Assembly: GCA_951406725.2 (NCBI GenBank)
Contig: OX597841.1
Location: 22,258,001 to 22,322,000, forward strand
Source: Octopus vulgaris
Taxonomy: Eukaryota
Direction of reading: 5' to 3'
Length of the DNA stretch: 64,000 nt
In this document: piece after piece, positions 4,278 to 37,903 of the stretch
How the letters are laid out: each line of letters begins with the position of its first letter
Position numbering within the stretch: the first letter of the stretch is position 1
Notes under the pieces: model-generated
Told to the model about the DNA's origin: nothing
Database searches by the model: none
What the model saw: the letters and a program-made list of their open reading frames with translations, nothing else
Position numbers and translations under genes: made by a program

Positions 4278-4286
4278 ATATGGTTT

Positions 4287-5108
4287 CTATCCTATATGAA
4301 CAAGTATGTGAGAATTTAAAACACTTCGGTCAGAGAATGAGGTACCACAGACATCACAGGGATAAGGCTTCTCTCCTGTATGAATACGTATGTGCGTAGT
4401 CAAGTTACCTTTTCGAGAGAATGATTTACCACAAGTGTCACAGTGAAATAGCTTCTCCCCTGTATGAATACGTTTGTGTCTAGTCAAGTTATTACTTTGA
4501 GGGAAAGATTTACCGCAGATGCCACAGTGAAACGGCTTCTCCCCTGTATGAACACGTATGTGATAATTTAAAGCACTTTGGGAACCGAATGATGTACCAC
4601 AGACATCACAGTGATATGGCTTCTCTCCAGTATGAATACGTTGGTGTGTACTCAAGCTACCTTTTCTAGGGAATGATTTACCGCAAACGTCACAGTGAAA
4701 TAGCTTCTCCCCTGTATGAACAAGTATGTGAGAGTTTAAAGCACTCTGGTCAGAGAATGATGTACCACAGACATCACAACGATAAGGCTTCTCCCCTGTA
4801 TGAATACGTTTGTGTCTAGTCAAGTTATTATTTTGAGGGAAAGATTTACCACAGATGTCGCAGTGAAATGGCTTCTCCCCTGTATGAATACGTTGGTGTG
4901 TAGTCAAGTTAATTTTTTTAGAGAATGATTTACCACAGGTGTCACAATGAAATGGATTTTCCCCTGTATGAACACGTTTGTGCATATTTAAGCGACCCTT
5001 TTGTGAGAAACACTTTTTACAGACATCACAGTCATATGACAGTTTTTGTTTCCCCTCTTCTCTATCTTCTGGAAAAATCAGTTCCTTTAGATTCTCACTC
5101 TTTTCCAT
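4287..5108 (-). CDS. C2H2 zinc-finger protein A, 273 aa, 9 fingers
   Basis: ORF of repeated CxxC-x12-HxxxH fingers with TGEKP linkers, all in one exon; ends HIG* at a mutated linker. Confidence 0.9.
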   Translation of the reverse strand: MEKSENLKELIFPEDREEGKQKLSYDCDVCKKCFSQKGRLNMHKRVHTGENPFHCDTCGKSFSKKINLTTHQRIHTGEKPFHCDICGKSFPQNNNLTRHKRIHTGEKPYRCDVCGTSFSDQSALNSHILVHTGEKLFHCDVCGKSFPRKGSLSTHQRIHTGEKPYHCDVCGTSFGSQSALNYHIRVHTGEKPFHCGICGKSFPQSNNLTRHKRIHTGEKLFHCDTCGKSFSRKGNLTTHIRIHTGEKPYPCDVCGTSFSDRSVLNSHILVHIG

Positions 5109-8393: not shown

Positions 8394-8907
8394 CTAGCAG
8401 TATCGCCCGGCGTTGCTCGGGTTTGTAAGGGAAATAACTATATAAGCATTTTTTAGAGAGTTACTTCCCTTATAGATGCCAATTCCGGCTTTCTTAGCCA
8501 TTTCTGTTTTGGTGTCTTCAAGCCATGAAGTCGTTGTTCTAAAAGAACGCTGGTCTTCTTGACAACGCTTTACGACGTTGATTTCCTTACACTCCCTTCC
8601 CCACAGCTTCACGAGGGAGGGAAGAAAGGGGAGAAGCAAACAGGTGCAGGTGTGACCATGGACGCCAACTCCGCCGCCATCGACACACGAAAAATTATGC
8701 ATTAAAATGGAATAAAAAATTATGTTAAATTATTTTTAAAATCGTAGACTCATCGTAGACACGCGCTAATACTCAGACGGGCTTAATATGAATCACGACT
8801 ATAAGATACCCGAATTTGGTTAAACTGCACCGCAAAATGTGGGAGTAGTTAGGAATCTAAATCGAAGGGGACAGACACTCACACAACTACAGTTTTATAT
8901 ATATAGA
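8394..8907 (-). mobile_element. Non-autonomous Helitron, ~514 bp
   Basis: Minus strand starts TC(tatatatataaaac), ends with hairpin CCCGagcaacgcCGGG then CTAG; inserted between A and T with no TSD; empty site in the other four cassettes. Confidence 0.82.
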
Positions 8908-10634
8908 TATATATAAAATCTCATAACAATTCCGCTTGTCATTGTTACTTAACCCTTTCATTACTGTATTTATTTTGAGATGCTCTCTGTTACTTTCAAT
9001 TACTTTAAATATAACAAAGAATTTAGTAAAATAACTTAGTTATCATTCAGCTAGTGTTAGGAACATAAATTGTGACTAAGGTTTGGTGGAAGATTTTAAC
9101 TCAAAACTTATGAAAACAAGACATTTGTACTTAGAGCCAGAGCCAGTTTCAGCCGGGTTGGTAACGAAAGGGTAACACATTCACATGGTCAGAGAAAGGG
9201 GGAGAGAGAGAAAAAGAGTGAGTGAGAAGCATGAAGTGTGGCAGGGGAGTACGTAATATGTATTACATGATTAAAAAGTCAGTTCAAAGTGATACAGAAA
9301 AGTGTTAGGAATATAATTTCAGTAGAGGGGTGATGTTCTGATGGTGAGATTAAAAAAAGACAGAAAGAGAGAGGGTGGTGGTGGTGGTGGTGACAATGGT
9401 GAGTGCATAGTGAAAAGAAAACTGCTTTTGTTTTTAATTGAACTAAGTTTTTTGTATTACCTATCACTTGACACATGCGCATCCCAAACTTGCCATTCTC
9501 TTTAGAAAGAAACCAGACTCCTGTTCACCTGTCATGCAATGACTATCAATAAAGCTTACAAGGGCAGACATTTCATAAAGTGGGGCCATTCTTGCCTGAA
9601 CCTGTATTCAACCATGGTCAGCTGTATGTTGCATTCTGAAGGTCTCGCAAATGATCTGATGTGAGGGTTAAATTTAACAAGACTGACAAGCACAGGGAAA
9701 GAAGAGGGAGAACTTACACAAACAACATCGTCTGCAAAGAAGTATTCGACTCAAAGGAGTACCGTAAATCCTTGAGTATAATATGTAGGGGATTTTTAGG
9801 GGGTTGTACAACTGAAAAACCTAAACCTTGTGTATAATACGCACCCCTTCTCTAACTAGAGTCGTGCGTAATTAAGCCAGCAGTACCTAGTCGAACAAAC
9901 ACTTCCGCGCATGCGTAATACAATAATGGTGATGTTCTTAACTGTTATATGGAAATGTAAATATGTTTGCAAATTGTTTTTGTTACATGTTTTCGGTGTT
10001 CTGAATACTTTTATTTTAATAAATGTTGCTTACTGCAAGTTATGGATGATTCGTTTATGACTTCATTGCTTTCAAAGGTATTTTCGTGCCCGACATTAGG
10101 CAGATGCCAGAGATCCTAGAAGCCATACACACACACACACAGATAGAACGGATTTTATATGAGATGTAATACATAACATCTTATACAAGTTGTTTGTATC
10201 AATTTGCTGTCTACACCTGTTGAAATTCTGTGAAACATTGCAAATATGTTAAAGTAACATTCAGTTTGTTACTAGGCTCATTGAAGTTTAATAAAAAATC
10301 TATAATTATATGGCTACGGCCCCTGGAAGGGATCCACATATATAACCAATATATTTTCCTTTAACAGACAAGGGAAATACCGGTGACATGTAAAAAGCAC
10401 CATCCGATCATGGCCACTTGTTAGCTTCGTCTGGCACCTGTGCAGGTGGCACATAAAAAGCACCCACTACACTCTCGGAGTGGTTGGCGTTAGGAAGGGC
10501 ATCCAGCTGTAGAAAAAACACTGCCAGATCAGACTGGGCCTGGTGCAGCCTCCTGGCTTCCCAGACCCCAGTTGAACTGCCCAACCCATGCTAGCATGGA
10601 ACAACAGACGTTAAACGATGATGATGATGATGAT

Positions 10635-11313: not shown

Positions 11314-11576
11314 ATGAAAATGTTTGTGAGAAGTTAAGCACTACTTTGAGAGAAAGATTTAATAATAATAATAATAATTGTGTACAGTGCTCAGGTGCAC
11401 TACAACTCATCTAAAGTGTATATATAATCAGGTGTAGTTTCGGCGGATTTCGGAAAGCATTAGGGCCTTAAAGGATGCAGTGTCATGGCAGTCAACAACT
11501 GACGCAGGCAGTTTATTCCATGCTTCAGCAACTCTGAGCGTGAAAAAATGTTTCCAAAAGTCATGATATGGTTTCT

Positions 11577-11785
11577 AACCTATATGAACAAGTATGTGAG
11601 AATTTAAAAGACTTTGGTCAGAGAATGATTTACCACAGACTTCACAGGGATAAGGCTTCTCTCCTGTATGAATACGTATGTGCGAAGTCAAGTTACCCTT
11701 TCGAGAGAATGATTTACCACAAGTGTCACAGTGAAATAGCTTCTCCACTGTATGAACACTTATGTGAGAGTTTAAAGCACTCTGG
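11577..11785 (-). pseudogene. Out-of-frame terminal fingers of gene B
   Basis: Reads [36 protein letters not shown]...HILVHIG*, homologous to the last fingers of C/D. Confidence 0.8.
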
Positions 11786-12523
11786 TCACTCTGTATGAAT
11801 ACGTTTGTGTCTAGTCAAGTTATAACTCTGAGGGAAAGATTTACCACAAATGTCACAGTGAAACAGCTTCTCCCCTGTATGAACACGTATGTGAGAATTT
11901 AAAGCACTTTGGGAACAGAATGATGTACCACAGACATCACAATGAAAAGGCTTCTCTCCTGTATGAATACGTATGTGTGTAGTCAGGCCACCTTTCTGAA
12001 AGAATGATTTACCACAAATGTCACAGTTAAATGGCTTCTTCCCTGTATGAATACGTTGGTGTGTAGTCAAGTTAATTTTTTTAGAGAATGATTTACCACA
12101 GGTGTCACAATGAAATGGATTCTCCCCTGTATGAACAAGTATGTGAGAGTTTAAAGCACTCTGGTCAGAGAATGATGTACTACAGACATCACAACGATAA
12201 GGCTTCTCCCCTGTATGAATACGTCTGTGTCTAGTCAAGTTAAAACTTTGAGGGAAAGATTTACCACAGATGTCGCAGTGAAATGGCTTCTCCCCTGTAT
12301 GAACACGTTCGTGTGTAGTCAAGTTACTTATTTTAGAGAATGATTTACCACAGGTGTCACAATGAAATGGATTTTCCCCTGTATGAACACGTTTGTGCAT
12401 ATTTAAGCGACCCTTTTTTGAGAAAGACTTTTTACAGACATCACAGTCATGTGACAATTTTTGTTTCCCCTCTTCTCTATCTTCAGGAAAAATCAGTTCC
12501 TTTAGATTCTCACTCTTTTCCAT
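11786..12523 (-). CDS. C2H2 zinc-finger protein B, 245 aa, 8 fingers, truncated by a frameshifting deletion
   Basis: 8 intact fingers, then a ~41-nt deletion relative to C/D gives HTE*. Confidence 0.85.
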
Positions 12524-14872: not shown

Positions 14873-15624
14873 TTTTGCGCTGTCAGCAATTAAAGCAAAG
14901 TCATCAGCATAGGGAAGCTCCCAGGGGCATACTGTTTTGAATTCCTCCGTTATTACCTGGAGGACTATGATAAATAGGAGGGGGCTGAGGACTGAACCTT
15001 GGTGGACCCCTACATCTACCCTGAATTCTTCAGCGTACTCGTTGCCAACCCTAACCTTAAGTGCAGCATCCCGTACATGGCTTGCACAGCTCTCACTAAC
15101 CATTCATCTATCCCTAGTTTCCTCATTGACCACCAGATAAGTGATCAGGGGACCCTGTCAAAGGCTTTCTCCATGTCAACGAAAGCGAGGTACAGGGGCT
15201 TATCTTTGGCTAGGTATTTCTCCTGCAGCTGTCTTACCAGAAATATAGCATCAGTGGTGCTTTCCCCTGGCACGAAACCAAATTGCATCTCATCCAAACT
15301 GACTCTCTCCCTAATTAGTTGGGCTATGACCCTCTCCGTGACCATCATGACCTGATCCAACAGCTTGATACCTCTGTAATTATTTGTATCTAAACCATCA
15401 CCTTTACCTTTGTAGCAGTTGACTATGGTGCTGCTACACCAGTCGTTGGGTATGACTCCTTCGTGTATCACCTGGTTTACTGTATGGGTGACTAGGCTTT
15501 AGCCGACACTGCCAGATATTTTGAGCATCTCTGCAGTAATTCCTGATGGGCCGGGGACTTTCCCTGTCTTCATACTTGTAATTGCCTTATCTATCAAGGT
15601 ACTGACAACTCGGATAGCTGGTCA

Positions 15625-15657: not shown

Positions 15658-17792
15658 CTCATAACAATTCTGCTTGACGTTGTTACTTAACCCTTTCATT
15701 ACTGTATTTATTTTGAGATGCTCTGTGTTACTTTCAATTACTTTAAATATAACAAAGAATTTAGTAAAATAACTTAGTTATCATTCAGCTAGTGTTAGGA
15801 ACATAAATTGTGACTAAGGTTTGGTGGAAGATTTTAACTCAAAACTTGTGAAAACAAAACATTTGTACTTAGAGCCAGAGCCGGTTTCAGCCGGGTTGGT
15901 AATGAAAGGGCTAAATGTTAAGTAGCAATAAAATACATCACTAAGGAAAGCTGTTGTTCTGGCTGTCAACTTGTGAGGTGTTATTGTTTTCAACTAAGAA
16001 CCATAGAATTTGCTATGGGAAAATTGAAGATTTGATTTCGATTTTAGTGCTAGCTTGTTTGCAAGGAAAATTTATCCCACGTGTTTTGTTACAGCTTGTT
16101 TAATAAATCGAGAGGTATTTATTATAGGAAAATGAATGAGGTATTTCCCTTGTCTGTTAAAGGAAAATATATTGGTTATATATGTGGATCCCTTCCAGGG
16201 GCCGTAGCCATATAATTATAGATTTTTTATTAAACTTCAATGAATGTTACTTTAACATATTTGCAATGTTTCACAGAATTTCAACAGGTGTAGACAGCAA
16301 ATTGATACAAACAACTTGTATAAGATGTTATATATTACATCTCATATAAAATCCATTCTATCTGTGTGTGTGTGTGTATGGCTTCTAGGATCTCTGGCAT
16401 CTGCCTAATGTCGGGCACGAAAATACCTTTGAAAGCAATGAAGTCATAAAAGAATCATCCATAACTTGCAGTAAGCAACATTTATTAAAATAAAAGTATT
16501 CAGAACACAGAAAACATGTAACAAAAACAATTTGCAAACATATTTACATTCCTATATAACAGTTAATAACATCACCATTATTGTATTACGCATGCGCGGA
16601 AGTGTTTGTTCGACTAGGTACTGCTGGCTTAATTACACACGACTCTAGTCAGAGAAGGGGTGCGTATTATACACAAGGTTTAGGTTTTTCAGAGGTACAG
16701 CTCCCTAAAAATCCCCTGCATATTATACTCAAGGATTTACGGTACTCCTTTCAGTCGAATACTTCTTTGCAGACTATGTTGTTTGTGTAAGTTCTCCCTC
16801 TTCTTGTCAGTCTTGTTAAATTTAACCCTCACATCAGATCATTTGCGAGACCTTCAGAATGCAACATACAGCTGACCATGGTTGAATACAGGTTCAGGCA
16901 AGAATGGCCCCACTTTATGAAATGTCTGCCCTTGTAAGCTTTATTGATAGTCATTGCATGACAGGTGAACAGGAGTCTGGTTTCTTTCTAAAGAGAATGG
17001 CAAGTTTGGGATGCGCATGTGTCAAGTGATAGGTAATACAAAAAACTTAGTTCAATTAAAAACAAAAGCAGTTTTCTTTTCACTATGCACTCACCATTGT
17101 CACCACCACCACCACCACCCTCTCTCTCTCTGTCTTTTTTTAATCTCACCATCAGAACATCACCCCTCTACTGAAATTATATTCCTAACACTTTTCTCTG
17201 TATCACTTTGAACTGACTTTTTAATCATGTAATACATATTATGTACTCCCCTGTCACACTTCATGCTTCTCACTCACTCTTTTTCTCTCTCTCCCCCTTT
17301 CTCTGATCATGTGAATGTGTTACCCTTTCGTTACCAACCCGGCTGAAACTGGCTCTGGCTCTAAGTACAAATGTCTTGTTTTCATAAGTTTTGAGTTAAA
17401 ATCTTCCACCAAACCTTAGTCACAATTTATGTTCCTAACACTAGCTGAATGATAACTAAGTTATTTTACTAAATCTTTCAACATCAATGGAAATTGTAGC
17501 TGAGATACCAGTGCCGGTGGCACGTAAGAGAACCGTCCGAACGTGGCCGTTGCCAGCGCCGCCCCAACTGGCCTCCGTGCCAGTGACATGGCCAGTTGCC
17601 AGCCTCGTCTGGCACCTGTGCAGGTGGCACGTAAAAAGCACCCACTACACTCTCAGAGTGGTTGGCGTTAGGAAGGGTAACCAGCTATAGAAACACTGCC
17701 AGATCAGACTGGGCCTGGCGCAGCCTCCTGGCTTCCCAGACCCCAGTTGAACTGCCCAACCCATGCTAGCATGGAACAACAGACGTTAAACG

Positions 17793-18488
17793 ATGATGAT
17801 GATGATGACTTCAGTCAAAATAGTGAACTTTATTAAGTCAAAGACTTTGCAATCGCGCCTATTTGAGAAGTTGTGCAAAGAGATGAGAAGCGATCATAAA
17901 TCACTTCTTTTGCACACAGAAATACGATGGCTCCCTAGGGGGCAAGTGTTAACAAGACTTGCAGAACGCCACGAAGAAGTAGCTATATTTTTAGAAGATA
18001 ATAGCGATTTTGCGAAATATTTGCGTGACGAAGAATTTGTTCTGAGGCTTACGTATTTAGCAGATATTTTTTCGAAATTAAACGACCTGAATTTGTATTT
18101 ACAAGGAACAGAAGGTATCAGTATATTTGCAATTCATGAGAAAATTCGAGGTTTTATGAAAAAACTTGTCTTGTGGAAAAATTGTATTAACAAGCGAAAT
18201 TATGACCGTTTTGAAACATTTGAAATTTTTGTAATGGAGAATAAAGCAAAAGTTGATGATGGTATAATCATTGAGATATCTGAACACTTGAATAAGTTAA
18301 ATGAAAGTTTTGAATTTTATTTTCATAAAGTGATGAATACTATACAACAGAAAAGATGGATTATGAACCCCTTTCAGCCTGACGTGACGACTGGAATATC
18401 AACAAAAGCCGGTGAGGAACTTATTGATTTATCCGAAGACTCTTCCTTGAAAATGACTTTTAACACAGGAATATGGTGTCTCTCCTGA
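17793..18488 (+). mobile_element. hAT transposase fragment, open 231-aa ORF (cassette C)
   Basis: Near-identical to 3341-4036. Confidence 0.88.
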
Positions 18489-18741
18489 ATGAAAATGTTT
18501 GTGAGAAGTTAAGCACTACTTTGAGAGAAAGATTTAATAATAATAATAATAATTGTGTACAGTGCTCAGGTGCACTACAACTCATCTAAAGTGTATGTAT
18601 AATCAGGTGTAGTTTCGGCGGATTTCGGAAAGCATTAAAGGATGCAGTGTCATGGCAGTCAACAACTGACGCAGGCAGTTTATTCCATGCTTCAGCAACT
18701 CTGAGCGTGAAAAAATGTTTCCGAAAGTCATGATATGGTTT

Positions 18742-20739
18742 CTATCCTATATGAACAAGTATGTGAGAATTTAAAACACTTCGGTCAGAGAATGAGGTAC
18801 CACAGACATCACAGGGATAAGGCTTCTCTCCTGTATGAATACGTATGTGCGTAGTCAAGTTACCTTTTCGAGAGAATGATTTACCACAAGTGTCACAGTG
18901 AAATAGCTTCTCCCCTGTATGAACACTTATGTGAGAGTTTAAAGCAGTCTGGTCAGAGAATGATGTACCACAGACATCACAACGATAAGGCTTCTCCCCT
19001 GTATGAATACGTTTGTGTCTAGTCAAGTTATTACTTTGAGGGAAAGATTTACCACAGATGTCACAGTGAAATGGTTTCTCCCCTGTATGAACACGTATGT
19101 GTGAATTAAAAGCACTTCGGCCAAGGAATGATGCAAAACAGACATCACAGTGATATGGCTTCTCTCCAGTATGAATACGTTGGTGTGTAGTCAAGCAAAC
19201 TTTTCTAGGGAATGAATTACCGCAGATGTCACAGTGAAATAGCTTCTCCCCTGTATGAACAAGTATGTGAGAGTTTAAAGCACTCTGGTCAGAGAATGAT
19301 GTACCACAGACATCACAACGATAAGGCTTCTCCCCTGTATGAATACGTTTGTGTCTAGTCAAGTTATTATTTTGAGTGAAAGATTTACCACAGATGTCGC
19401 AGTGAAATGGCTTCTCCCCTGTATGAACAAGTATGTGAGAGTTTAAAGTACTCTGGACAGAGAATGATGTACCACAGACATCACAACGATAAGGCTTCTC
19501 CCCTGTATGAATACGTTTGTGTCTAGTCAAGTTATTACTTTGAGGGAAAGATTTACCACAGATGTCACAGTGAAATGGTTTCTCCCCTGTATGAACACGT
19601 ATGTGTGAATTAAAAGCACTTCGGCCAAGGAATGATGCAAAACAGACATCACAGTGATATGGCTTCTCTCCAGTATGAATACGTTGGTGTCTAGTCAAGC
19701 TACCTTTTCTAGGGAATGATTTACCGCAGATGTCACAGTGAAATAGCTTCTCCCCTGTATGAACAAGTATGTGAGAGTTTAAAGCACTCTGGTCAGAGAA
19801 TGATGTACCACAGACATCACAACGATAAGGCTTCTCCCCTGTATGAATACGTTTGTGTCTAGTCAAGTTATTATTTTGAGGGAAAGATTTACCACAGATG
19901 TCGCAGTGAAATGGCTTCTCCCCTGTATGAACAAGTATGTGAGAGTTTAAAGTACTCTGGGCAGAGAATGATGTACCACAGACATCACAACGATAAGGCT
20001 TCTCCCCTGTATGAATACGTTTGTGTCTAGTCAAGTTATTACTTTGAGGGAAAGATTTACCACAGATGTCACAGTGAAATAGCTTCTCCCCTGTATGAAC
20101 AAGTATGTGAGAGTTTAAAGCACTCTGGTCAGAGAATGATGTACCACAGACATCACAACGATAAGGCTTATCCCCTGTATGAATACGTTTGTGTCTAGTC
20201 AAGTTATTATTTTGAGGGAAAGATTTACCACAGATGTCACAGTGAAATAGCTTCTCCCCTGTATGAACAAGTATGTGAGAGTTTAAAGCACTCTGGTGAG
20301 AGAATGATGTACCACAGACCTCACAACGATAAGGCTTCTCCCCTGTATGAATACGTTTGTGTCTAGTCAAGTTATTACTTTGAGGGAAAGATTTACCACA
20401 GATGTCGCAGTGAAATGGCTTCTCCCCTGTATGAATACGTTTGTGTCTAGTCAAGTTATTATTTTGAGGGAAAGATTTACCACAGATGTCGCAGTGAAAT
20501 GGCTTCTCCCCTGTATGAATACGTTGGTGTGTAGTCAAGTTAATTTTTTTAGAGAATGATTTACCACAGGTGTCACAGTGAAATGGATTTTCCCCTGTAT
20601 GAACACGTTTGTGCATATTTAAGCGACCCTTTTTTGAGAAAGACTTTTTACAGACATCACAGTCATGTGACAATTTTTGTTTCCCCTCTTCTCTATCTTC
20701 AGGAAAAATCAGTTCCTTTAGATTCTCACTCTTTTCCAT
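18742..20739 (-). CDS. C2H2 zinc-finger protein C, 665 aa, 23 fingers
   Basis: 23 fingers with internal 2-finger (168 bp) and 6-finger (504 bp) repetition. Confidence 0.92.
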   Translation of the reverse strand: MEKSENLKELIFPEDREEGKQKLSHDCDVCKKSFSKKGRLNMHKRVHTGENPFHCDTCGKSFSKKINLTTHQRIHTGEKPFHCDICGKSFPQNNNLTRHKRIHTGEKPFHCDICGKSFPQSNNLTRHKRIHTGEKPYRCEVCGTSFSHQSALNSHILVHTGEKLFHCDICGKSFPQNNNLTRHKRIHTGDKPYRCDVCGTSFSDQSALNSHILVHTGEKLFHCDICGKSFPQSNNLTRHKRIHTGEKPYRCDVCGTSFSAQSTLNSHILVHTGEKPFHCDICGKSFPQNNNLTRHKRIHTGEKPYRCDVCGTSFSDQSALNSHILVHTGEKLFHCDICGKSFPRKGSLTRHQRIHTGEKPYHCDVCFASFLGRSAFNSHIRVHTGEKPFHCDICGKSFPQSNNLTRHKRIHTGEKPYRCDVCGTSFSVQSTLNSHILVHTGEKPFHCDICGKSFTQNNNLTRHKRIHTGEKPYRCDVCGTSFSDQSALNSHILVHTGEKLFHCDICGNSFPRKVCLTTHQRIHTGEKPYHCDVCFASFLGRSAFNSHIRVHTGEKPFHCDICGKSFPQSNNLTRHKRIHTGEKPYRCDVCGTSFSDQTALNSHISVHTGEKLFHCDTCGKSFSRKGNLTTHIRIHTGEKPYPCDVCGTSFSDRSVLNSHILVHIG

Positions 20740-21543
20740 TATTTTTCTTCAAAAATCACAGTATATAATCTTTTTTCACCTTTTCGCTTCCATAGTGTTT
20801 TGTTTCCAAATATTTCAACTGCTGTATTTCTGTCCATTGTTAATTTTGTCCCAAAACATTTTACTAAAATAATCCAAGTTTAATTCTTACACAGACTTAT
20901 CTTGTGGACACTCCAGCCAGTGATATCCAGAAGGTTTGCTAATAACACAATTCAGAGTAAATATATCAGAGGAATTCCACCACAGATTTATAGAAACAAT
21001 CTTATATATCTGTTCTGTACAATATTTCCATTTTGGTCTTTAAAAGATGATAAATAATGAGAATGTATCTTCAGTTATGCCAATGTCATCTGATATTCTG
21101 AAAGAATAAAGAAACAACAGTGTAAGATATGGAGGCTACTTAAAAAAATACAGATTCAACATTTCCATAAAGATAAACTCTAGAAACAAACATTTAACTG
21201 AACAACAGAACTTTCTAATTTATTAGAATTTACATGAGAAAATCTTGTGTGAAGCTAACATATTTGTAAACTCCAGCTACACATTCACACACGTTTATAT
21301 ATATATATACTCTTCCTTGTGTTAGTTGTTTTGACTGTGGCTATACTGGAGCATCACCTTAGAGGGTGTTAGTTGATCAAATCAACCCTAGGACTTCATT
21401 TTTTAGCCTAGTACATATATTGGCCTCTTTTGTGAAACCACTAAATTATGGGGACACAAACATACGAACACTGGTTATGAAGTGTTGGTGGGGCGTCAAA
21501 CAGTCACAAAGATATATATGCATATATACATAAATACTCATTA

Positions 21544-21574
<31 letters not shown>

Positions 21575-22295
21575 TTGGGCTTCTTTCAGTTTCCATCTAC
21601 CAAATCCAATGACAAGGATTTAGTCGGCTAATGTCTATTGTATAAAATACTTGCCTAAGTAGGTTCGCAGTGGGACTGAACCTGGAAACATATATATATA
21701 TATATATATATATATGCTTACACGTTAATATATACGTACGTGTATGTATATACATGTGTGTGTATGTGAAGGTTTTGGGGTTAGTGGTGTGAGCAATCAG
21801 CTCCTAATAAGGTCATAATTTCAATTCCCAGCAGTGTGCTGTGTTGTTGAGCAAGACATGTTGCTCCAGGTTCACTCAGCTGACAAAAGTGAATTGTACC
21901 AGTAATTTGAAGGGCCAGCCTTATCACATTAGTAAGGTGGATCAGAATTGGGTAGAAAGTTGAGGGAAAATTTGCTGAAAATAAAAAGGAGGTGGCACCC
22001 GACTGTGTTATGGACAGCAACTGGAAGAAGTAGGATGGCCAATTTCTAGTGGTAAATATAAAGTGAAGGAGAAAATACAAAAATAAAAAAAGGGGGTTAC
22101 TCATTTTGCCCCACTTACTAATTTTGGTTCCCTTTCTCTATATCAAGAAACAAACATAGGATGCAGAAAGTGATGTAGATGTTCTTCGGTTTCTATTTGG
22201 CTGTCTTCATATTTATTATGGTTGAATGAGATATTCCCACAAAGATATTATATTTAAATTGACCTAATATGTTGGGATTGACATGTGCCCTTCAT

Positions 22296-22672
22296 TTAAC
22301 CATCTTACAAACAATAACTCTGAGCACCTTTTCGAACTCCACCCGTCTAACACCCGTGGACATATTTACAAAGTCAGAAAACAGCACAGCTCCCATGACT
22401 TCAGGAAACATTTTTTCACGCTGAGAGATGCTCAAACATGGAACAAACTGCCGGCATCAGTTGTTTGTTGTCGGAGCATTGCATCCTTCAAAACTTCCTG
22501 AGATTCGCCAACGCTACACCTGATTTTCTCCCCTCCATATACACGCAAGCATGTATCTGACTCATACATTGTTCGCTTCCCAGACATTTGTACATCACTG
22601 CATACACTTCATTACACACTTTTGACAAGTTGTGGTGCACCTGAGCACTGTATACAATAATTTCATTATTAT
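22296..22672 (+). mobile_element. CR1/L2-group LINE 3' end in the gene C intron (also ~31230-31606 in D)
   Basis: [33 protein letters not shown], then 3'UTR and attatt tail. Confidence 0.8.
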
Positions 22673-24030
22673 AACTTAAACCTGATTTCTTTTACAACTT
22701 GCTGTCGATAAAATGACAAGAGCGGTCAAATACCTTTCCTGGAGACGTATTAAAGTGTCAATTCCAAAGATATTTTCATTTGGTTCTCGTTCATTTTTCC
22801 AAATTCAATTCCATATAAATACTTGAGAGTAATTTCCCTTCGTCAATAAAGATCCAGGTGATTAAACGGGAAGGCGGCCCTAAATTCCGGTCTGAAAGCT
22901 ATGTCCCACAGAGATGACAAGAATTAAAGCACCTCTCTGTTTCGTTTAGACAAATCTGAAGCTAGTACAAGATTTAAGACGGCATTCCTTCGACATAATT
23001 CGACAAAAGTCAAACCATTTCACTTTGGGTATTTTCCGTGGAAGCAAATGACAATTCGATTCTGTTTGCAAATTTTCGGATTTTACATACACACATGAAA
23101 CGGGTGTAGAACGAATATGCAAGGCTTTCTTTCTTCGAGTTTATACCCTTATGACTTCTGGTCATTATGGAGGAAAGCAACGTCGGGTATCTTTAATTCT
23201 ACAACAAGAACTGTATGTGGGAATGAGTAGCTTCCAGAAAGCACGCGATCCACTAAGTAAAAATCGGAAAAAAAACCCAGGATTTTACAACATTCAGAGT
23301 TCTGAAATGTCCTTTAGAATAATTCTGGCTAAAACCTACAATGATATCAGTTGAAATCTTTCTAAGCAATGCCAATAGTGGAAAAAAAAGGCGAAATTAC
23401 TCATTTTGCCCCGCTTATTAATTTCGTCCCATTCCCCACACCAAGAACCAAACATTCGATGAATTATAAAAAAGCATTCTTTATAACATCCCACGGAAGT
23501 TTCCAGAAGAGTTCTGAAATGTCGTTTAGAATAATTCTGGCTAAAACCTACAATGATTTCAGTTGAAATCTATCTAACTAATATCAACAGTGTAAAAGTG
23601 AGGCGAAATTACTCATTTTGCCCCGCTTACTAATGTCGTCCCCTCTCTTTATCAAGAAACAAACATTCAATATATTATAATAAAGCATTGGTTTTTCAAC
23701 ATTCCTGTGGTTGGAGTTTATTCGGGAATACTTCCCAAACTAAAACACAACAAACGAACGTGGAAACGATGGCGCGTGTAGGAAGAAATGAGGAATTACT
23801 CATTTTGCCCCACCTACCAATTTTGTCCCCTTCCCATTGGTTTCTCAGCATTTCTGTGGTTGGAGTTTATTTTAAGAATATTTCTCCACCTAAAACACAC
23901 AACAAACAAACTTAAAGAAGAAACGATGGAGCGTGTAGGAGGTTGCCGCCATAGCTAGAAATAGCAGCCAAATGTGGAACAAAATCTGATTCACAAAGTA
24001 TCGAAAGGTTAAATGTTTTCGTTGTTTAAT

Positions 24031-24215
24031 ACTTACGCAAATGTCTTTATAAAGGATGGTGTTGTTGTTGTTATGAGTGCATCAGGTGGGAGAGAAATGT
24101 ATTATAAATGTGCTTGGGAGTGAATTGAGAGAAATTCTGGCGCCAAACAAAGCTTGTCAAGATGTAATAAATAGAAGCGGAAATAGGTTTAGTGCGCATG
24201 CGTATGTAATAGTTG
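24031..24215 (-). promoter_or_regulatory. Putative promoter/first exon of gene C
   Basis: Donor 24031-24036, TGCGCATGCG 24193-24202. Confidence 0.65.
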
Positions 24216-28499: not shown

Positions 28500-28761
28500 A
28501 TGAAAATGTTTGTGAGAAGTTAAGCACTACTTTGAGAGAAAGATTTAATAATAATAATAATAATAATAATAATTGTGTACAGTGCTCAGGTGCACTACAA
28601 CTCATCTAAAGTGTATGTATAATCAGGTGTAGTTTCGGCGGATTTCGGAAAGCATTAAAGGATGCAGTGTCATGGCAGTCAACAACTGACGCAGGCAGTT
28701 TATTCCATGCTTCAGCAACTCTGAGCGTGAAAAAATGTTTCCGAAAGTCATGATATGGTTT

Positions 28762-29667
28762 CTATCCTATATGAACAAGTATGTGAGAATTTAAAACACT
28801 TCGGTCAGAGAATGAGGTACCACAGACATCACAGGGATAAGGCTTCTCTCCTGTATGAATACGTATGTGCGTAGTCAAGTTACCTTTTCGAGAGAATGAT
28901 TTACCACAAGTGTCACAGTGAAATAGCTTCTCCCCTGTATGAACACTTATGTGAGAGTTTAAAGCAGTCTGGTCAGAGAATGATGTACCACAGACATCAC
29001 AACGATAAGGCTTCTCCCCTGTATGAATACGTTTGTGTCTAGTCAAGTTATTACTTTGAGGGAAAGATTTACCACAGATGTCACAGTGAAATGGTTTCTC
29101 CCCTGTATGAACACGTATGTGTGAATTAAAAGCACTTCGGCCAAGGAATGATGCAAAACAGACATCACAGTGATATGGCTTCTCTCCAGTATGAATACGT
29201 TGGTGTGTAGTCAAGCTACCTTTTCTAGGGAATGATTTACCGCAGATGTCACAGTGAAATAGCTTCTCCCCTGTATGAACAAGTATGTGAGAGTTTAAAG
29301 CACTCTGGTCAGAGAATGATGTACCACAGACATCACAACGATAAGGCTTCTCCCCTGTATGAATACGTTTGTGTCTAGTCAAGTTATTACTTTGAGGGAA
29401 AGATTTACCACAGATGTCGCAGTGAAATGGCTTCTCCCCTGTATGAATACGTTGGTGTGTAGTCAAGTTAATTTTTTTAGAGAATGATTTACCACAGGTG
29501 TCACAGTGAAATGGCTTCTCCCCTGTATGAACACGTTTGTGCATATTTAAGCGACCCTTTTTTGAGAAAGACTTTTTACAGACATCACAGTCATGTGACA
29601 ATTTTTGTTTCCCCTCTTCTCTATCTTCAGGAAAAATCAGTTCCTTTAGATTCTCACTCTTTTCCAT
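28762..29667 (-). CDS. C2H2 zinc-finger protein D, 301 aa, 10 fingers
   Basis: Ends nearly identical to C but 13 fewer fingers. Confidence 0.9.
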
Positions 29668-34593: not shown

Positions 34594-36169
34594 ATATATA
34601 TATATATATATATATAAAATCTCATAACAATTCTGCTTGTCATTGTTACTTAACCCTTTCATTACTGTATTTATTTTGAGATGCTCTGTGTTACTTTCAA
34701 TTACTTTAAATATAACAAAGAATTTAGTAAAATAACTTAGTTATCATTCAGCTAGTGTTAGGAACATAAATTGTGACTAAGGTTTGGTGGAAGATTCTAA
34801 CTCAAAACTTATGAGAACAAAACATTTGTACTTAGAGCCAGAGCCAGTTTCAGCCGGGTTGGTAACGAAAGGGTAACACATTCACATGGTCAGAGAAAGG
34901 GGGAGAGAGAGAAAAAGAGTGAGTGAGAAGCATGAAGTGTGGCAGGGGAGTACGTAATATGTATTACATGATTAAAAAGTCAGTTCAAAGTGATACAGAA
35001 AAGTGTTAGGAATATAATTTCAGTAGAGGGGTGATGTTCTAATGGTGAGATTAAAAAAAGACAGAAAGAGAGAGGGTGGTGGTGGTGGTGGTGACAATGG
35101 TGAGTGCATAGTGAAAAGAAAACTGCTTTTGTTTTTAATTGAACTAAGTTTTTTTGTATTACCTATCACTTGACACATGCGCATCCCAAACTTGCCATTC
35201 TCTTTAGAAAGAAACCAGACTCCTGTTCACCTGTCATGCAATGACTATCAATAAAGCTTACAAGGGCAGACATTTCGTAAAGTGGGGCCATTCTTGCCTG
35301 AACCTGTATTCAACCATGGTCAGCTGTATGTTGCATTCTGAAGGTCTCGCAAATGATCTGATGTGAGGGTTAAATTTAACAAGACTGACAAGAACAGGGA
35401 AAGAAGAGGGAGAACTTACACAAACAACATAGTCTGCAAAGAAGTATTCGACTGAAAGGAGTACCGTAAATCCTTGAGTATAATATGCAGGGGATTTTTA
35501 GGGAGCTGTACCCCTGAAAAACCTAAACCTTGTGTATAATACGCACCCCTTCTCTAACTAGAGTCGTGCGTAATTAAGCCAGCAGTACCTAGTCGAACAA
35601 ACACTTCCGCGCATGCGTAATACAATAATGGTGATGTTCTTAACTGTTATATGGAAATGTAAATATGTTTGCAAATTGTTTTTGTTACATGTTTTCTGTG
35701 TTCTGAATACTTTTATTTTAATAAATGTTGCTTACTGCAAGTTATGGATGATTCTTTTATGACTTCATTGCTTTCAAAGGTATTTTCGTGCCCGACATTA
35801 GGCAGATGCCAGAGATCCTAGAAGCCATACACACACACACACAGATAGAATGGATTTTATATGAGATGTAATATATAACATCTTATACAAGTTGTTTGTA
35901 TCAATTTGCTGTCTACACCTGTTGAAATTCTGTGAAACTTTGCAAATATGTTAAAGTAACATTCAGTTTGTTACTAGGCTCATTGAAGTTTAATAAAAAA
36001 TCTATAATTATATGGCTACGGCCCCTGGAAGGGATCCACATATATAACCAATATATTTTCCTTTAACAGACAAAGGAAAGACCTCATTCATTTTCCTTTA
36101 ATAAATACCTCTCGATTTATTAAACAAGCTGTAATAAAAATGTGGGATAAATTTTCCTTGCAAACAAGC

Positions 36170-36663
36170 AAGATAAAAGCGATTTTGCGAAATATTTGCG
36201 TGACGAAGAATTTGTTCTGAGGCTTACGTATTTAGCAGATATTTTTTCGAAATTAAACGACCTGAATTTGTATTTACAACGAACAGAAGGTATCAGTATA
36301 TTTGCAATTCATGACAAAATTTGAGGTTTTATGAAAAAACTTGTCTTGTGGAAAAATTGTATTAACAAGCGAAATTATGACCGTTTTGAAACATTTGAAA
36401 TTTTTGTAATGGAGAATAAAGCAAAAGTTGATGATGGTATAATCATTGAGATATCTGAACACTTGAATAAGTTAAATGAAAGTTTTGAATTTTATTTTCA
36501 TAAAGAGATGAATACTATACAACAGAAAAGATGGATTATGAACCCCTTTCAGCCAGACGTGACGACTGGAATATCAACAAAAGCCGATGAGGAACTTATT
36601 GTTTTATCCGAAGACTCTTCCTTGAAAATGACTTTTAACACAGGAATATGGTGTCTCTCCTGA
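36170..36663 (+). pseudogene. hAT transposase fragment, 5'-deleted and disrupted (cassette E)
   Basis: Starts abruptly at aagataaaagcg; shares the TGA of cassette B. Confidence 0.85.
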
Positions 36664-36758: not shown

Positions 36759-37165
36759 TGTGTACAGTGCTCAGGTGCACTACAACTCATCTAAAGTGTA
36801 TATATAATCAGGTGTAGTTTCGGCGGATTTCGGAAAGCATGAGGGCCTTAAAGGATGCAGTGTCATGGCAGTCAACAACTGACGCAGGCAGTTTATTCCA
36901 TGCTTCAGCAACTCTGAGCGTGAAAAAATGTTTCCGAAAGTCGTGATATGGTTTCTATCCTATATGAACAAGTATGTGAGAATTTAAAAGACTTTGGTCA
37001 GAGAATGATTTACCACAGACTTCACAGGGATAAGGCTTCTCTCCTGTATGAATACGTATGTGCGAAGTCAAGTTACCTTTTCGAGAGAATGATTTACCAC
37101 AAGTGTCAAAGTGAAATAGCTTCTCCACTGTATGAACACTTATGTGAGAGTTTAAAGCACTCTGG

Positions 37166-37903
37166 TCACTCTGTATGAATACGTTTGTGTCTAGTCAAGT
37201 TATAACTCTGAGGGAAAGATTTACCACAAATGTCACAGTGAAACCGCTTCTCCCCTGTATGAACACGTATGTGAGATATTAAAGCACTTTGGGAACCGAA
37301 TGATGTAGCACAGACATCACAATGAAAAGGCTTCTCTCCTGTATGAATACGTATGTGTGTAGTCAGGCCACCTTTCTGAAAGAATGATTTACCACAGATG
37401 TCACAGTTAAATGGCTTCTTCCCTGTATGAATACGTTGGTGTGTAGTCAAGTTAATTTTTTTAGAGAATGATTTACCACAGGTGTCACAATGAAATGGAG
37501 TCTCCCCTGTATGAACAAGTATATGAGAGTTTAAAGCACTCTGGTGAGAGAATGATGTACTACAGACATCACAACGATAAGGCTTCTCCCCTGTATGAAT
37601 ACGTCTGTGTCTAGTCAAGTTAAAACTTTGAGGGAAAGATTTATCACAGATGTCGCAGTGAAATGGCTTCTCCCCTGTATGAACACGTTCGTGTGTAGTC
37701 AAGTTACTTATTTTAGAGAATGATTTACCACAGGTGTCACAATGAAATGGATTTTCCCCTGCATGAACACGTTTGTGCATATTTAAGTGACCCTTTTTTG
37801 AGAAAGACTTTTTACAGACATTACAGTCATATGAGAGTTTTTGTTTCCCCTCTTCTCTACCTTCAGGAAAAATCAGTTCCTTCACTTTCTCACTCTTTTC
37901 CAT
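37166..37903 (-). CDS. C2H2 zinc-finger protein E, 245 aa, 8 fingers, truncated like B
   Basis: Same HTE* deletion junction (ggtcactctgtatg) as B; out-of-frame fingers follow at ~36957-37165. Confidence 0.85.

What the first reader, a model, noticed from the sequence alone, without database searches (positions are those of the whole stretch)
18742..20739. Finger array behaving as a coding minisatellite (23 versus 10 fingers in near-identical cassettes)
Seen: C alternates Q(N/S)NNLTR fingers with xQS(A/T)LNS fingers in 168-bp dimers. Fingers 8-13 repeat as 14-19 (504 bp), with new changes at helix positions (AQST to VQST, RKGSLTR to RKVCLTT). D has nearly identical flanks but 13 fewer fingers, and A has 9. 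Established: PRDM9 arrays evolve this way. Inference: a diversity generator for DNA-binding specificity; the periodic array may read a periodic target such as a satellite.
Basis: partly seen in the sequence, partly recalled or inferred. Interest (0 to 1): 0.75.

Follow-up and report, generated by a model that had tools for sequence, protein, structure and literature searches.

The report
Fast-evolving octopus zinc-finger array
An octopus zinc-finger gene has copied blocks of its own fingers to reach 23 and differs from a near-twin gene next door mostly at the amino acids that contact DNA, which likely reflects selection for new binding targets, as is known for mammalian zinc-finger clusters; what it binds is unknown.

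Summary
Gene C is a fingers-only octopus C2H2 gene (24-residue leader, 23 fingers). It has 168-bp and 504-bp internal repeats; fingers 8-13 and 14-19 differ at 6 of 504 bases, all amino-acid changing. A second 23-finger copy (Z) lies just left of the window, so the length is not a one-off mis-assembly. D is an exact 10-finger subset of Z, most likely a contraction. C and Z differ at 15 bases: 14 change an amino acid and 9 fall at DNA-contact positions, about 10 times the flank rate. Conversion from neighbouring fingers may supply about half of these. The trait is cluster-wide: dN/dS at contact positions is 1.6-1.75 over 806 other fingers, and 7 of 52 long arrays are minisatellite-like. It is not PRDM9: no PR/SET domain on this chromosome, and the PRDM9 diversity statistic is average. 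A periodic target is not supported: the predicted hexamer repeat occurs in a LINE-like element but is not enriched. Verdict: known KRAB-ZNF-type cluster dynamics, measured here in octopus. The scan's notes showed no earlier finding of this.

The parts
18742..20739 (-). Gene C coding sequence: 665 aa = 24-aa leader + 23 C2H2 fingers, one coding exon, no effector domain seen
   Evidence: an in-frame stop lies just upstream of 20748, so no upstream exon can join in frame at the 21098 acceptor
18736..20667 (-). Finger array of C (23 x 84 bp); 17 of 23 fingers have a twin within 3 nt
19576..20079 (-). Fingers 8-13, first copy of the 504-bp block
19072..19575 (-). Fingers 14-19, second copy of the 504-bp block (6 differences, all non-synonymous)
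19197..19216 (-). Three C-specific changes in finger 18 (K>N, +2 G>V, +3 S>C); a 24-mer over +2/+3 is unique in the assembly
19691..19691 (-). Finger 12 position +6 T>R; this letter is carried by a contig of run X17, while X1, X4 and X11 show only the T-type letter
21098..24036 (-). GT-AG intron between a non-coding first exon and the finger exon; the joined contigs match a paralogue's exon end, so they show the family's structure, not C's own expression
   Evidence: (joint in 2 of 4 runs)
28756..29595 (-). Array of D: 10 fingers, each identical to a finger of Z (Z1, 2, 4, 17-23; Z = G000:C28:22252244-22254175, left of the window)
4281..5036 (-). Array of A: 9 fingers, more diverged sister cassette
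11569..12451 (-). Cassette B: 8 fingers, then a frameshift and stop, with remaining fingers out of frame
36949..37831 (-). Cassette E: same frameshift as B
17790..18488 (+). Transposase-like fragment duplicated with the cassette (hAT-like label recalled; no Pfam match)
15145..15498 (-). Reverse-transcriptase fragment duplicated with the cassette
   Evidence: RVT_1, E 4.9e-9

Best explanation
Gene C is a fingers-only C2H2 gene of the octopus zinc-finger cluster whose array holds recent in-frame copies of 2- and 6-finger blocks, likely made by unequal crossing-over, and whose new copies are likely being diversified at DNA-contact residues by positive selection helped by gene conversion. Shown: the block repeats, the twin 23-finger copy Z, D as an exact finger subset of Z, the excess of changes at -1/+2/+3/+6, and the same excess across the cluster. 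Inferred: unequal crossing-over as the cause, D as a contraction, selection as the cause of the excess, and transposable elements or other repeats as the likely targets (by analogy with KRAB-ZNF and FiNZ-ZNF genes). The periodicity is most likely a by-product of how the array grew, not a match to a periodic target.
For: C vs Z: 9 changes in 211 non-synonymous contact sites (0.043), 5 in 1248 other non-synonymous sites (0.0040), 1 in 464 synonymous sites (0.0022); flanks 31 of 7210 (0.0043); Fisher p 1.3e-6. With structural residues removed from the null, 9 of 15 against an 18% share gives p 3.7e-4. The S-finger codon -1 shows four different derived residues (H, A, V, Y). Cluster without this family: 806 unique fingers, dN/dS 1.61-1.75 at contact and 0.49-0.51 at other positions, with no change at the four zinc ligands. 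None of the 15 C/Z differences hits a zinc ligand or shifts the frame. Contigs of run X17 carry two contact-site variants. Finger-number change and contact-site selection in young paralogues are documented for primate KZNFs (PMC3126818, passages) and zebrafish FiNZ-ZNFs (PMC10547256, passages).
Against: Counts are small: 15 bases, or 9 events of which 6 touch contact codons. 5 of 9 contact variants have a 28-37 nt exact match in another cluster finger (null fraction 0.03-0.14), so conversion can import them without selection at this gene; without them the excess is 4 of 211 (p 0.017), or 3 of 211 (p 0.07). The flank rate omits 385 poorly aligned columns with 46 differences; with them it is 77 of 7595 (0.010) and the excess is about 4-fold. 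Finger trees are distorted by conversion, so the dN/dS values are approximate. Most C-specific variants are unverified in independent reads; they are transversion-rich (3:12 against 10:11 in the flank). Expression of C itself and any binding are not shown.
Confidence: 0.68

Rival explanations
1. Neutral turnover: the array expands and contracts as any tandem repeat does, and conversion from neighbouring fingers, which already differ mostly in the helix, imitates selection.
For: 5 of 9 contact variants have long donor matches. Flanks are mosaics. Neighbours B and E are frameshifted. Non-contact non-synonymous divergence between C and Z equals the flank rate, as expected under weak constraint.
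Against: Cluster-wide dN/dS is above 1 at each of the four contact positions at all three thresholds while the rest is 0.5; conversion redistributes such variants but does not create that excess. The finger-18 variant has no exact donor in the assembly. Four contact variants without long donors remain (p 0.017).
Confidence: 0.15
2. The Q/S dimer array reads a periodic DNA target, predicted from the recalled finger code as (NTCGAA)n, such as the (ATCGAA)n tract in a LINE-like repeat.
For: The three-period pattern has 238 matches against 6 for the reversed control. All 6 loci inspected lie in one interspersed repeat; 1 of the 6 has a reverse-transcriptase piece upstream on the same strand. None of the 18 Q fingers in Z/C/D changed a contact residue.
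Against: 0 two-period matches in a 1-Mb genome sample (0.82 expected), and 128 of 948 comparable patterns have at least one three-period match per Mb against 0.085 per Mb for this one. The six-finger core pattern gives 58 scattered matches against 107 for its control. Recent changes break up the S fingers rather than keep them uniform. The code is approximate and recalled.
Confidence: 0.07
3. Assembly effect: Z and C are two alleles placed in tandem by an uncollapsed haplotype, or the 23-finger length or its variants are errors.
For: Z-A aligns to C-D over 14.9 kb at 97.8%, offset 24.5 kb. No piece listed spans the array. The exact proteins are not in the protein collection (0 of 4).
Against: The 23-finger layout occurs twice with independent substitutions. 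Divergence is uneven (5' flank A-D 35 of 833, C-D 0 of 833), unlike two haplotypes. No N lies in 464 kb. Differences cluster at contact codons, which errors would not do. If Z and C are alleles, the contact-site excess stands and becomes polymorphism.
Confidence: 0.08
4. C is the finger exon of a PRDM9-like recombination-hotspot gene.
For: Coding minisatellite behaviour and changes at -1, +3 and +6 resemble mouse Prdm9 (PMC3890296, abstract).
Against: 0 of 15 PR/SET matches lie on C28. An in-frame stop precedes the start codon and the first exon is non-coding. Diversity proportion 0.315, rank 32 of 67, against rank 1 and about 0.67 for several placental PRDM9 rows (PMC5519329, passages).
Confidence: 0.01

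Closest known systems
Cephalopod C2H2 zinc-finger expansion (PMC12513265, part 1 of 7 and passages; PMC9068888, passages)
   Same: Clustered tandem C2H2 genes in an octopus genome; the only proteins found with this leader are from Octopus vulgaris, O. sinensis and O. bimaculoides (5 hits).
   Different: The passages seen treat gene numbers, phylogeny and expression, and call a transposon arms race an open question; they give no finger-level turnover or dN/dS. PMC10547256 reports high entropy at contact positions for its species set, which includes octopus (passage; its supplement not seen).
Young KRAB-ZNF clusters of primates and mouse (PMC3126818, passages; PMC12575710, passages)
   Same: Segmental duplication of multi-gene blocks together with their transposons, gain and loss of fingers, and contact-residue divergence among recent paralogues.
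   Different: No KRAB domain: a 24-aa leader and fingers only. Targets and co-repressor unknown.
PRDM9 finger minisatellite (PMC3890296, abstract; PMC5519329, passages; bioRxiv 10.1101/848366, passages)
   Same: 84-bp coding repeat with unit gain and loss, near-identical fingers, non-synonymous change at contact codons.
   Different: No PR/SET, SSXRD or KRAB; repeat units of 2 and 6 fingers with distinct frameworks rather than a homogenised single unit; one of many such arrays in a cluster; allelic polymorphism untested.
Zebrafish FiNZ-ZNFs (PMC10547256, passages) and hemipteran ZF271-like genes (PMC6444547, passages)
   Same: Lineage-specific clustered expansions; ZF271-like genes are fingers-only with pseudogenes; FiNZ clades show positive selection at base-contacting residues.
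   Different: FiNZ genes have an N-terminal domain and were shown to repress transposons; nothing functional is shown here.

Membership tests
PRDM9 | PR/SET methyltransferase domain in the same gene | tested here: not met
   PF21549 search: 15 matches, none on C28; in-frame stop upstream of the start codon
PRDM9 | KRAB and SSXRD domains | tested here: not met
   Only 24 residues precede finger 1; neither family is among the 25 of 45 Pfam rows shown
PRDM9 | Top-ranked share of amino-acid diversity at contact residues | tested here: not met
   0.315, rank 32 of 67 arrays, median 0.314; first finger and the stop-containing last finger left out
PRDM9 | Finger array evolving by unit gain/loss with contact-site change | tested here: met
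   (between paralogues)
PRDM9 | High allelic diversity within the species; meiotic expression; hotspot control | not testable with these tools
   Only short-read contigs were offered; finger 12 differs between runs at one site, a hint only
KRAB-ZNF | N-terminal KRAB domain | tested here: not met
KRAB-ZNF | Clustered birth and death, finger-number change, contact-site selection in young paralogues | tested here: met
KRAB-ZNF | Binds and represses transposable elements | tested here: inconclusive
   Predicted motif occurs in a LINE-like repeat but is not enriched; binding untested
Octopus expanded C2H2 family | Tandem C2H2 fingers with TGEKP linkers in a dense cluster | tested here: met
   58 arrays of 4 or more fingers in 464 kb; 534 candidates for the 5' region
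Octopus expanded C2H2 family | Leader shared with Octopus proteins | tested here: met
   5 of 5 hits to residues 1-40 are Octopus proteins, 69-80% identical

The most novel reading that the evidence does not exclude
C, Z and D are a fingers-only invertebrate counterpart of a PRDM9-style hypervariable locus: polymorphic in finger number and contact residues among living octopuses, and chasing a changing tandem tract such as the (ATCGAA)n in a LINE-like family, so that array length tracks tract length. The second family with runs of identical QRNNLTT fingers would then read (NAA)n microsatellites in the same way.
Probability: 0.08. Interest if true: 0.78.

Novelty: new member of a known kind. 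Interest (0 to 1): 0.45.

Why it matters
Octopuses have over a thousand C2H2 genes, and whether they are in an arms race with transposons is described as open (PMC12513265, passage). This locus gives direct sequence evidence of dN/dS above 1 at contact residues in an octopus cluster and a natural allelic series: Z, C and D share flanks and framework but differ in finger number and in a few contact residues. That makes the question testable with three constructs. The mechanism itself is known from mammals and fish, so the gain is a new lineage and a clean test case, not a new principle.

Tried and rejected
Periodic target: the 238-versus-6 count looked strong but fell against a proper null and with the six-finger core pattern. 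PRDM9 membership: rejected. Homologue search with residues 1-110 returned mostly generic vertebrate finger proteins and was uninformative; leader-only searches found 5 Octopus proteins but no orthologous array. Exact look-up of C, Z, D and A found 0 of 4. No RNA holder listed on record; the runs laid are only guessed to be RNA and their depth was not used. No independent read check of the finger 15, 16 and 18 variants was obtained, so these stay unverified. Literature searches for finger-level selection or array turnover in octopus listed no such paper; the library lacks most subscription journals, the 2015 octopus genome paper was not held, and no supplements were read, so an earlier description cannot be excluded. 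Earlier scan notes: none near this place or with these words.

Full report
Setting. The window is G000:C28:22258001-22322000 in a 2.80-Gb genome. It lies in a dense C2H2 zinc-finger cluster: 58 arrays of four or more fingers in the 464 kb around it, with no N. The only proteins found with the leader of gene C are named from Octopus vulgaris, O. sinensis and O. bimaculoides (5 hits). Large clustered C2H2 expansions are known in octopus (PMC12513265, part 1 of 7 and passages; PMC9068888, passages).

The observation. It is real. C has 23 in-frame fingers, D 10 and A 9. TRF reports period 168 with 11.2 copies. Finger distances in C fall from 25.5 at lag 1 to 11.2 at lag 2 and 7.8 at lag 6, while arrays F, G and H stay at 21-29. 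Fingers 8-13 and 14-19 differ at 6 of 504 bases, all non-synonymous, 4 of them at -1, +2, +3 or +6. 17 of 23 fingers have a twin within 3 bases.

Gene anatomy. The protein is 665 aa: a 24-residue leader and fingers only. An in-frame stop precedes the start. Contigs from 2 of 4 runs join 21097 to 24039, matching a GT-AG intron at 24036-21098 after a non-coding first exon. The two letters at that joint fit a paralogue's exon end, so this shows the family's structure and not that C itself is expressed; the runs are only guessed to be RNA. None of 15 PR/SET matches is on C28.

A second 23-finger gene, Z, lies at C28:22252244-22254175, 24.5 kb from C, with the same finger order. The cassettes run Y(17) Z(23) A(9) B(8, frameshifted) C(23) D(10) E(8, frameshifted). 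A 68-base junction of the family occurs 9 times in the assembly, all in Z, C and D. All 10 fingers of D are identical to fingers of Z (1, 2, 4, 17-23). The 5' flanks differ at 3 of 3639 columns between C and D and at 21 between Z and C. D is therefore nested within the 23-finger pair by its 5' flank, and most likely lost 13 fingers (inference). The flanks are mosaics, since the 3' flank of D shares 10 sites with A, so conversion could mislead this polarity. A and Y suggest that the older layout had about ten fingers and that the blocks were added in the ancestor of Z and C (inference).

Contact-residue change. C and Z differ at 15 of 1932 bases; 14 are non-synonymous and 9 lie at -1, +2, +3 or +6. 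Rates are 0.043 at contact sites, 0.0040 at other non-synonymous sites, 0.0022 at synonymous sites and 0.0043 in the flanks (Fisher p 1.3e-6). The flank figure leaves out 385 poorly aligned columns; with them it is 0.010 and the excess about 4-fold. Removing structural residues from the null still gives p 3.7e-4. By comparison with D and the class majority, 11 of the 15 changes arose in C, 3 in Z and 1 cannot be placed (my reading). One codon, -1 of the S fingers, has four different derived residues, while none of the 18 Q fingers changed a contact residue (noticed after the fact).

Checks against that reading. Merging nearby changes leaves 9 events, 6 at contact codons. Five of 9 contact variants have exact matches of 28-37 bases in other fingers among the 1029 held, rarer than most random changes would give (fraction 0.03-0.14), so conversion likely contributes. 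Without these the excess is 4 of 211 (p 0.017), or 3 of 211 (p 0.07) if one within-array case is dropped too. The finger-18 variant is unique in the assembly. Independent support for the variants is partial: run X17 has a contig over 19664-19756 with no difference from C, covering the finger-12 R, and a contig with the +3 Thr of an S finger as in Z9; X1, X4 and X11 show only the T-type letter at 19691. The other variants are unverified.

How special is it? Only moderately. Among 79 arrays in 664 kb (not a random sample: 80 kb were chosen for likeness to C's 5' region), 7 of 52 arrays with ten or more fingers have at least half their fingers twinned and 18 of 52 have some twin. Four of the seven belong to a second family with runs of identical QRNNLTT fingers and differing counts. 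Excluding the Y-E family, 806 unique fingers give dN/dS of 1.61-1.75 at contact positions and about 0.5 elsewhere, at three distance thresholds. Z/C/D exceed this share only modestly (10 of 19 against 242 of 874, p 0.035). These values come from minimum-spanning links between fingers and are approximate. By the statistic of Baker et al. (PMC5519329, passages) C is average: 0.315, rank 32 of 67; full-length PRDM9 genes span 0.33-1.0 in vertebrates (bioRxiv 10.64898/2026.09.07.749791, passages).

The periodic target. The recalled finger code gives GAA for QxNNLTR and NTC for DQSALNS, so the dimer would read (NTCGAA)n. Three periods occur 238 times against 6 for the reversed control. All 6 loci inspected are an (ATCGAA)n tract in one interspersed repeat, with a reverse-transcriptase piece upstream in 1 of 6. 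LINEs make up 12.9% of the O. vulgaris genome (PMC13282606, part 1 of 3). But in 100 evenly spaced 10-kb stretches of C1-C5 the two-period pattern has 0 matches (0.82 expected), and 128 of 948 comparable patterns have at least one three-period match per Mb, over ten times the 0.085 per Mb of this one. The six-finger core gives 58 scattered matches against 107 for its control. The tract is a candidate for a binding test and no more.

Mechanism, committed. Misaligned exchange between 84-bp units adds and removes finger blocks, exchange between cassettes copies whole genes with their transposon fragments, conversion moves short helix tracts between fingers, and selection likely favours changed contact residues. 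The first three are read from sequence patterns; the last rests on the rate excess; the target, probably a repeat, is analogy. Confidence 0.68.

Comparison with what is known. This is how young KRAB-ZNF clusters behave (PMC3126818, passages; PMC12575710, passages), and zebrafish FiNZ-ZNFs show contact-site selection (PMC10547256, passages). Fingers-only clustered families exist in true bugs (PMC6444547, passages). It works partly like the PRDM9 array (PMC3890296, abstract; bioRxiv 10.1101/848366, passages) but fails three defining tests. My searches listed no finger-level study in octopus; supplements and the 2015 genome paper were not seen. Verdict: a real, well-marked new member of a known kind; interest 0.45.

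Noticed in passing
G000:C28:7113993-7115420, 10453507-10454598, 10606519-10607862, 10991301-10992812 (L042, L044, L046, L048): A second, purer finger minisatellite: RKGHLSM followed by runs of QRNNLTT fingers with 84-bp period, up to five identical in a row; 17, at least 13, 16 and 12+5 fingers. By the recalled code it would read (NAA)n. A better test case for a periodic target than C.
   Followed up: partly
G000:C28:22252244-22254175 (L020): Gene Z, the 23-finger twin of C just left of the window.
   Followed up: yes
window 11569-12451 and 36949-37831: Cassettes B and E share the same frameshift after finger 8, so the broken copy was itself duplicated.
   Followed up: partly
L061-L068 (for example G000:C1:5900222): An (ATCGAA)n tract of variable length inside an abundant LINE-like repeat whose 3' part has about 80 aligned pieces per Mb in the sample.
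   Followed up: partly
G000:C30:2771385-2786934, 4170089, 5455674-5459961; C22:47256308: Several closely similar PR/SET-domain matches, four on C30; whether any is a full PRDM9 was not examined.
   Followed up: no
window 21098-24200 and 20740-21097: The spliced 5' UTR (start set arbitrarily at 24200) holds seven upstream ATGs, one opening a 32-codon frame that overlaps the main start.
   Followed up: no
window 8896-10381 and 34597-36182: A 1.4-kb segment is inverted in the cassettes of B and E relative to those of A, C and D.
   Followed up: no
G000:C28:22415652-22416995: Another array with a recent four-finger (336-bp) block duplication and changed helix residues.
   Followed up: no
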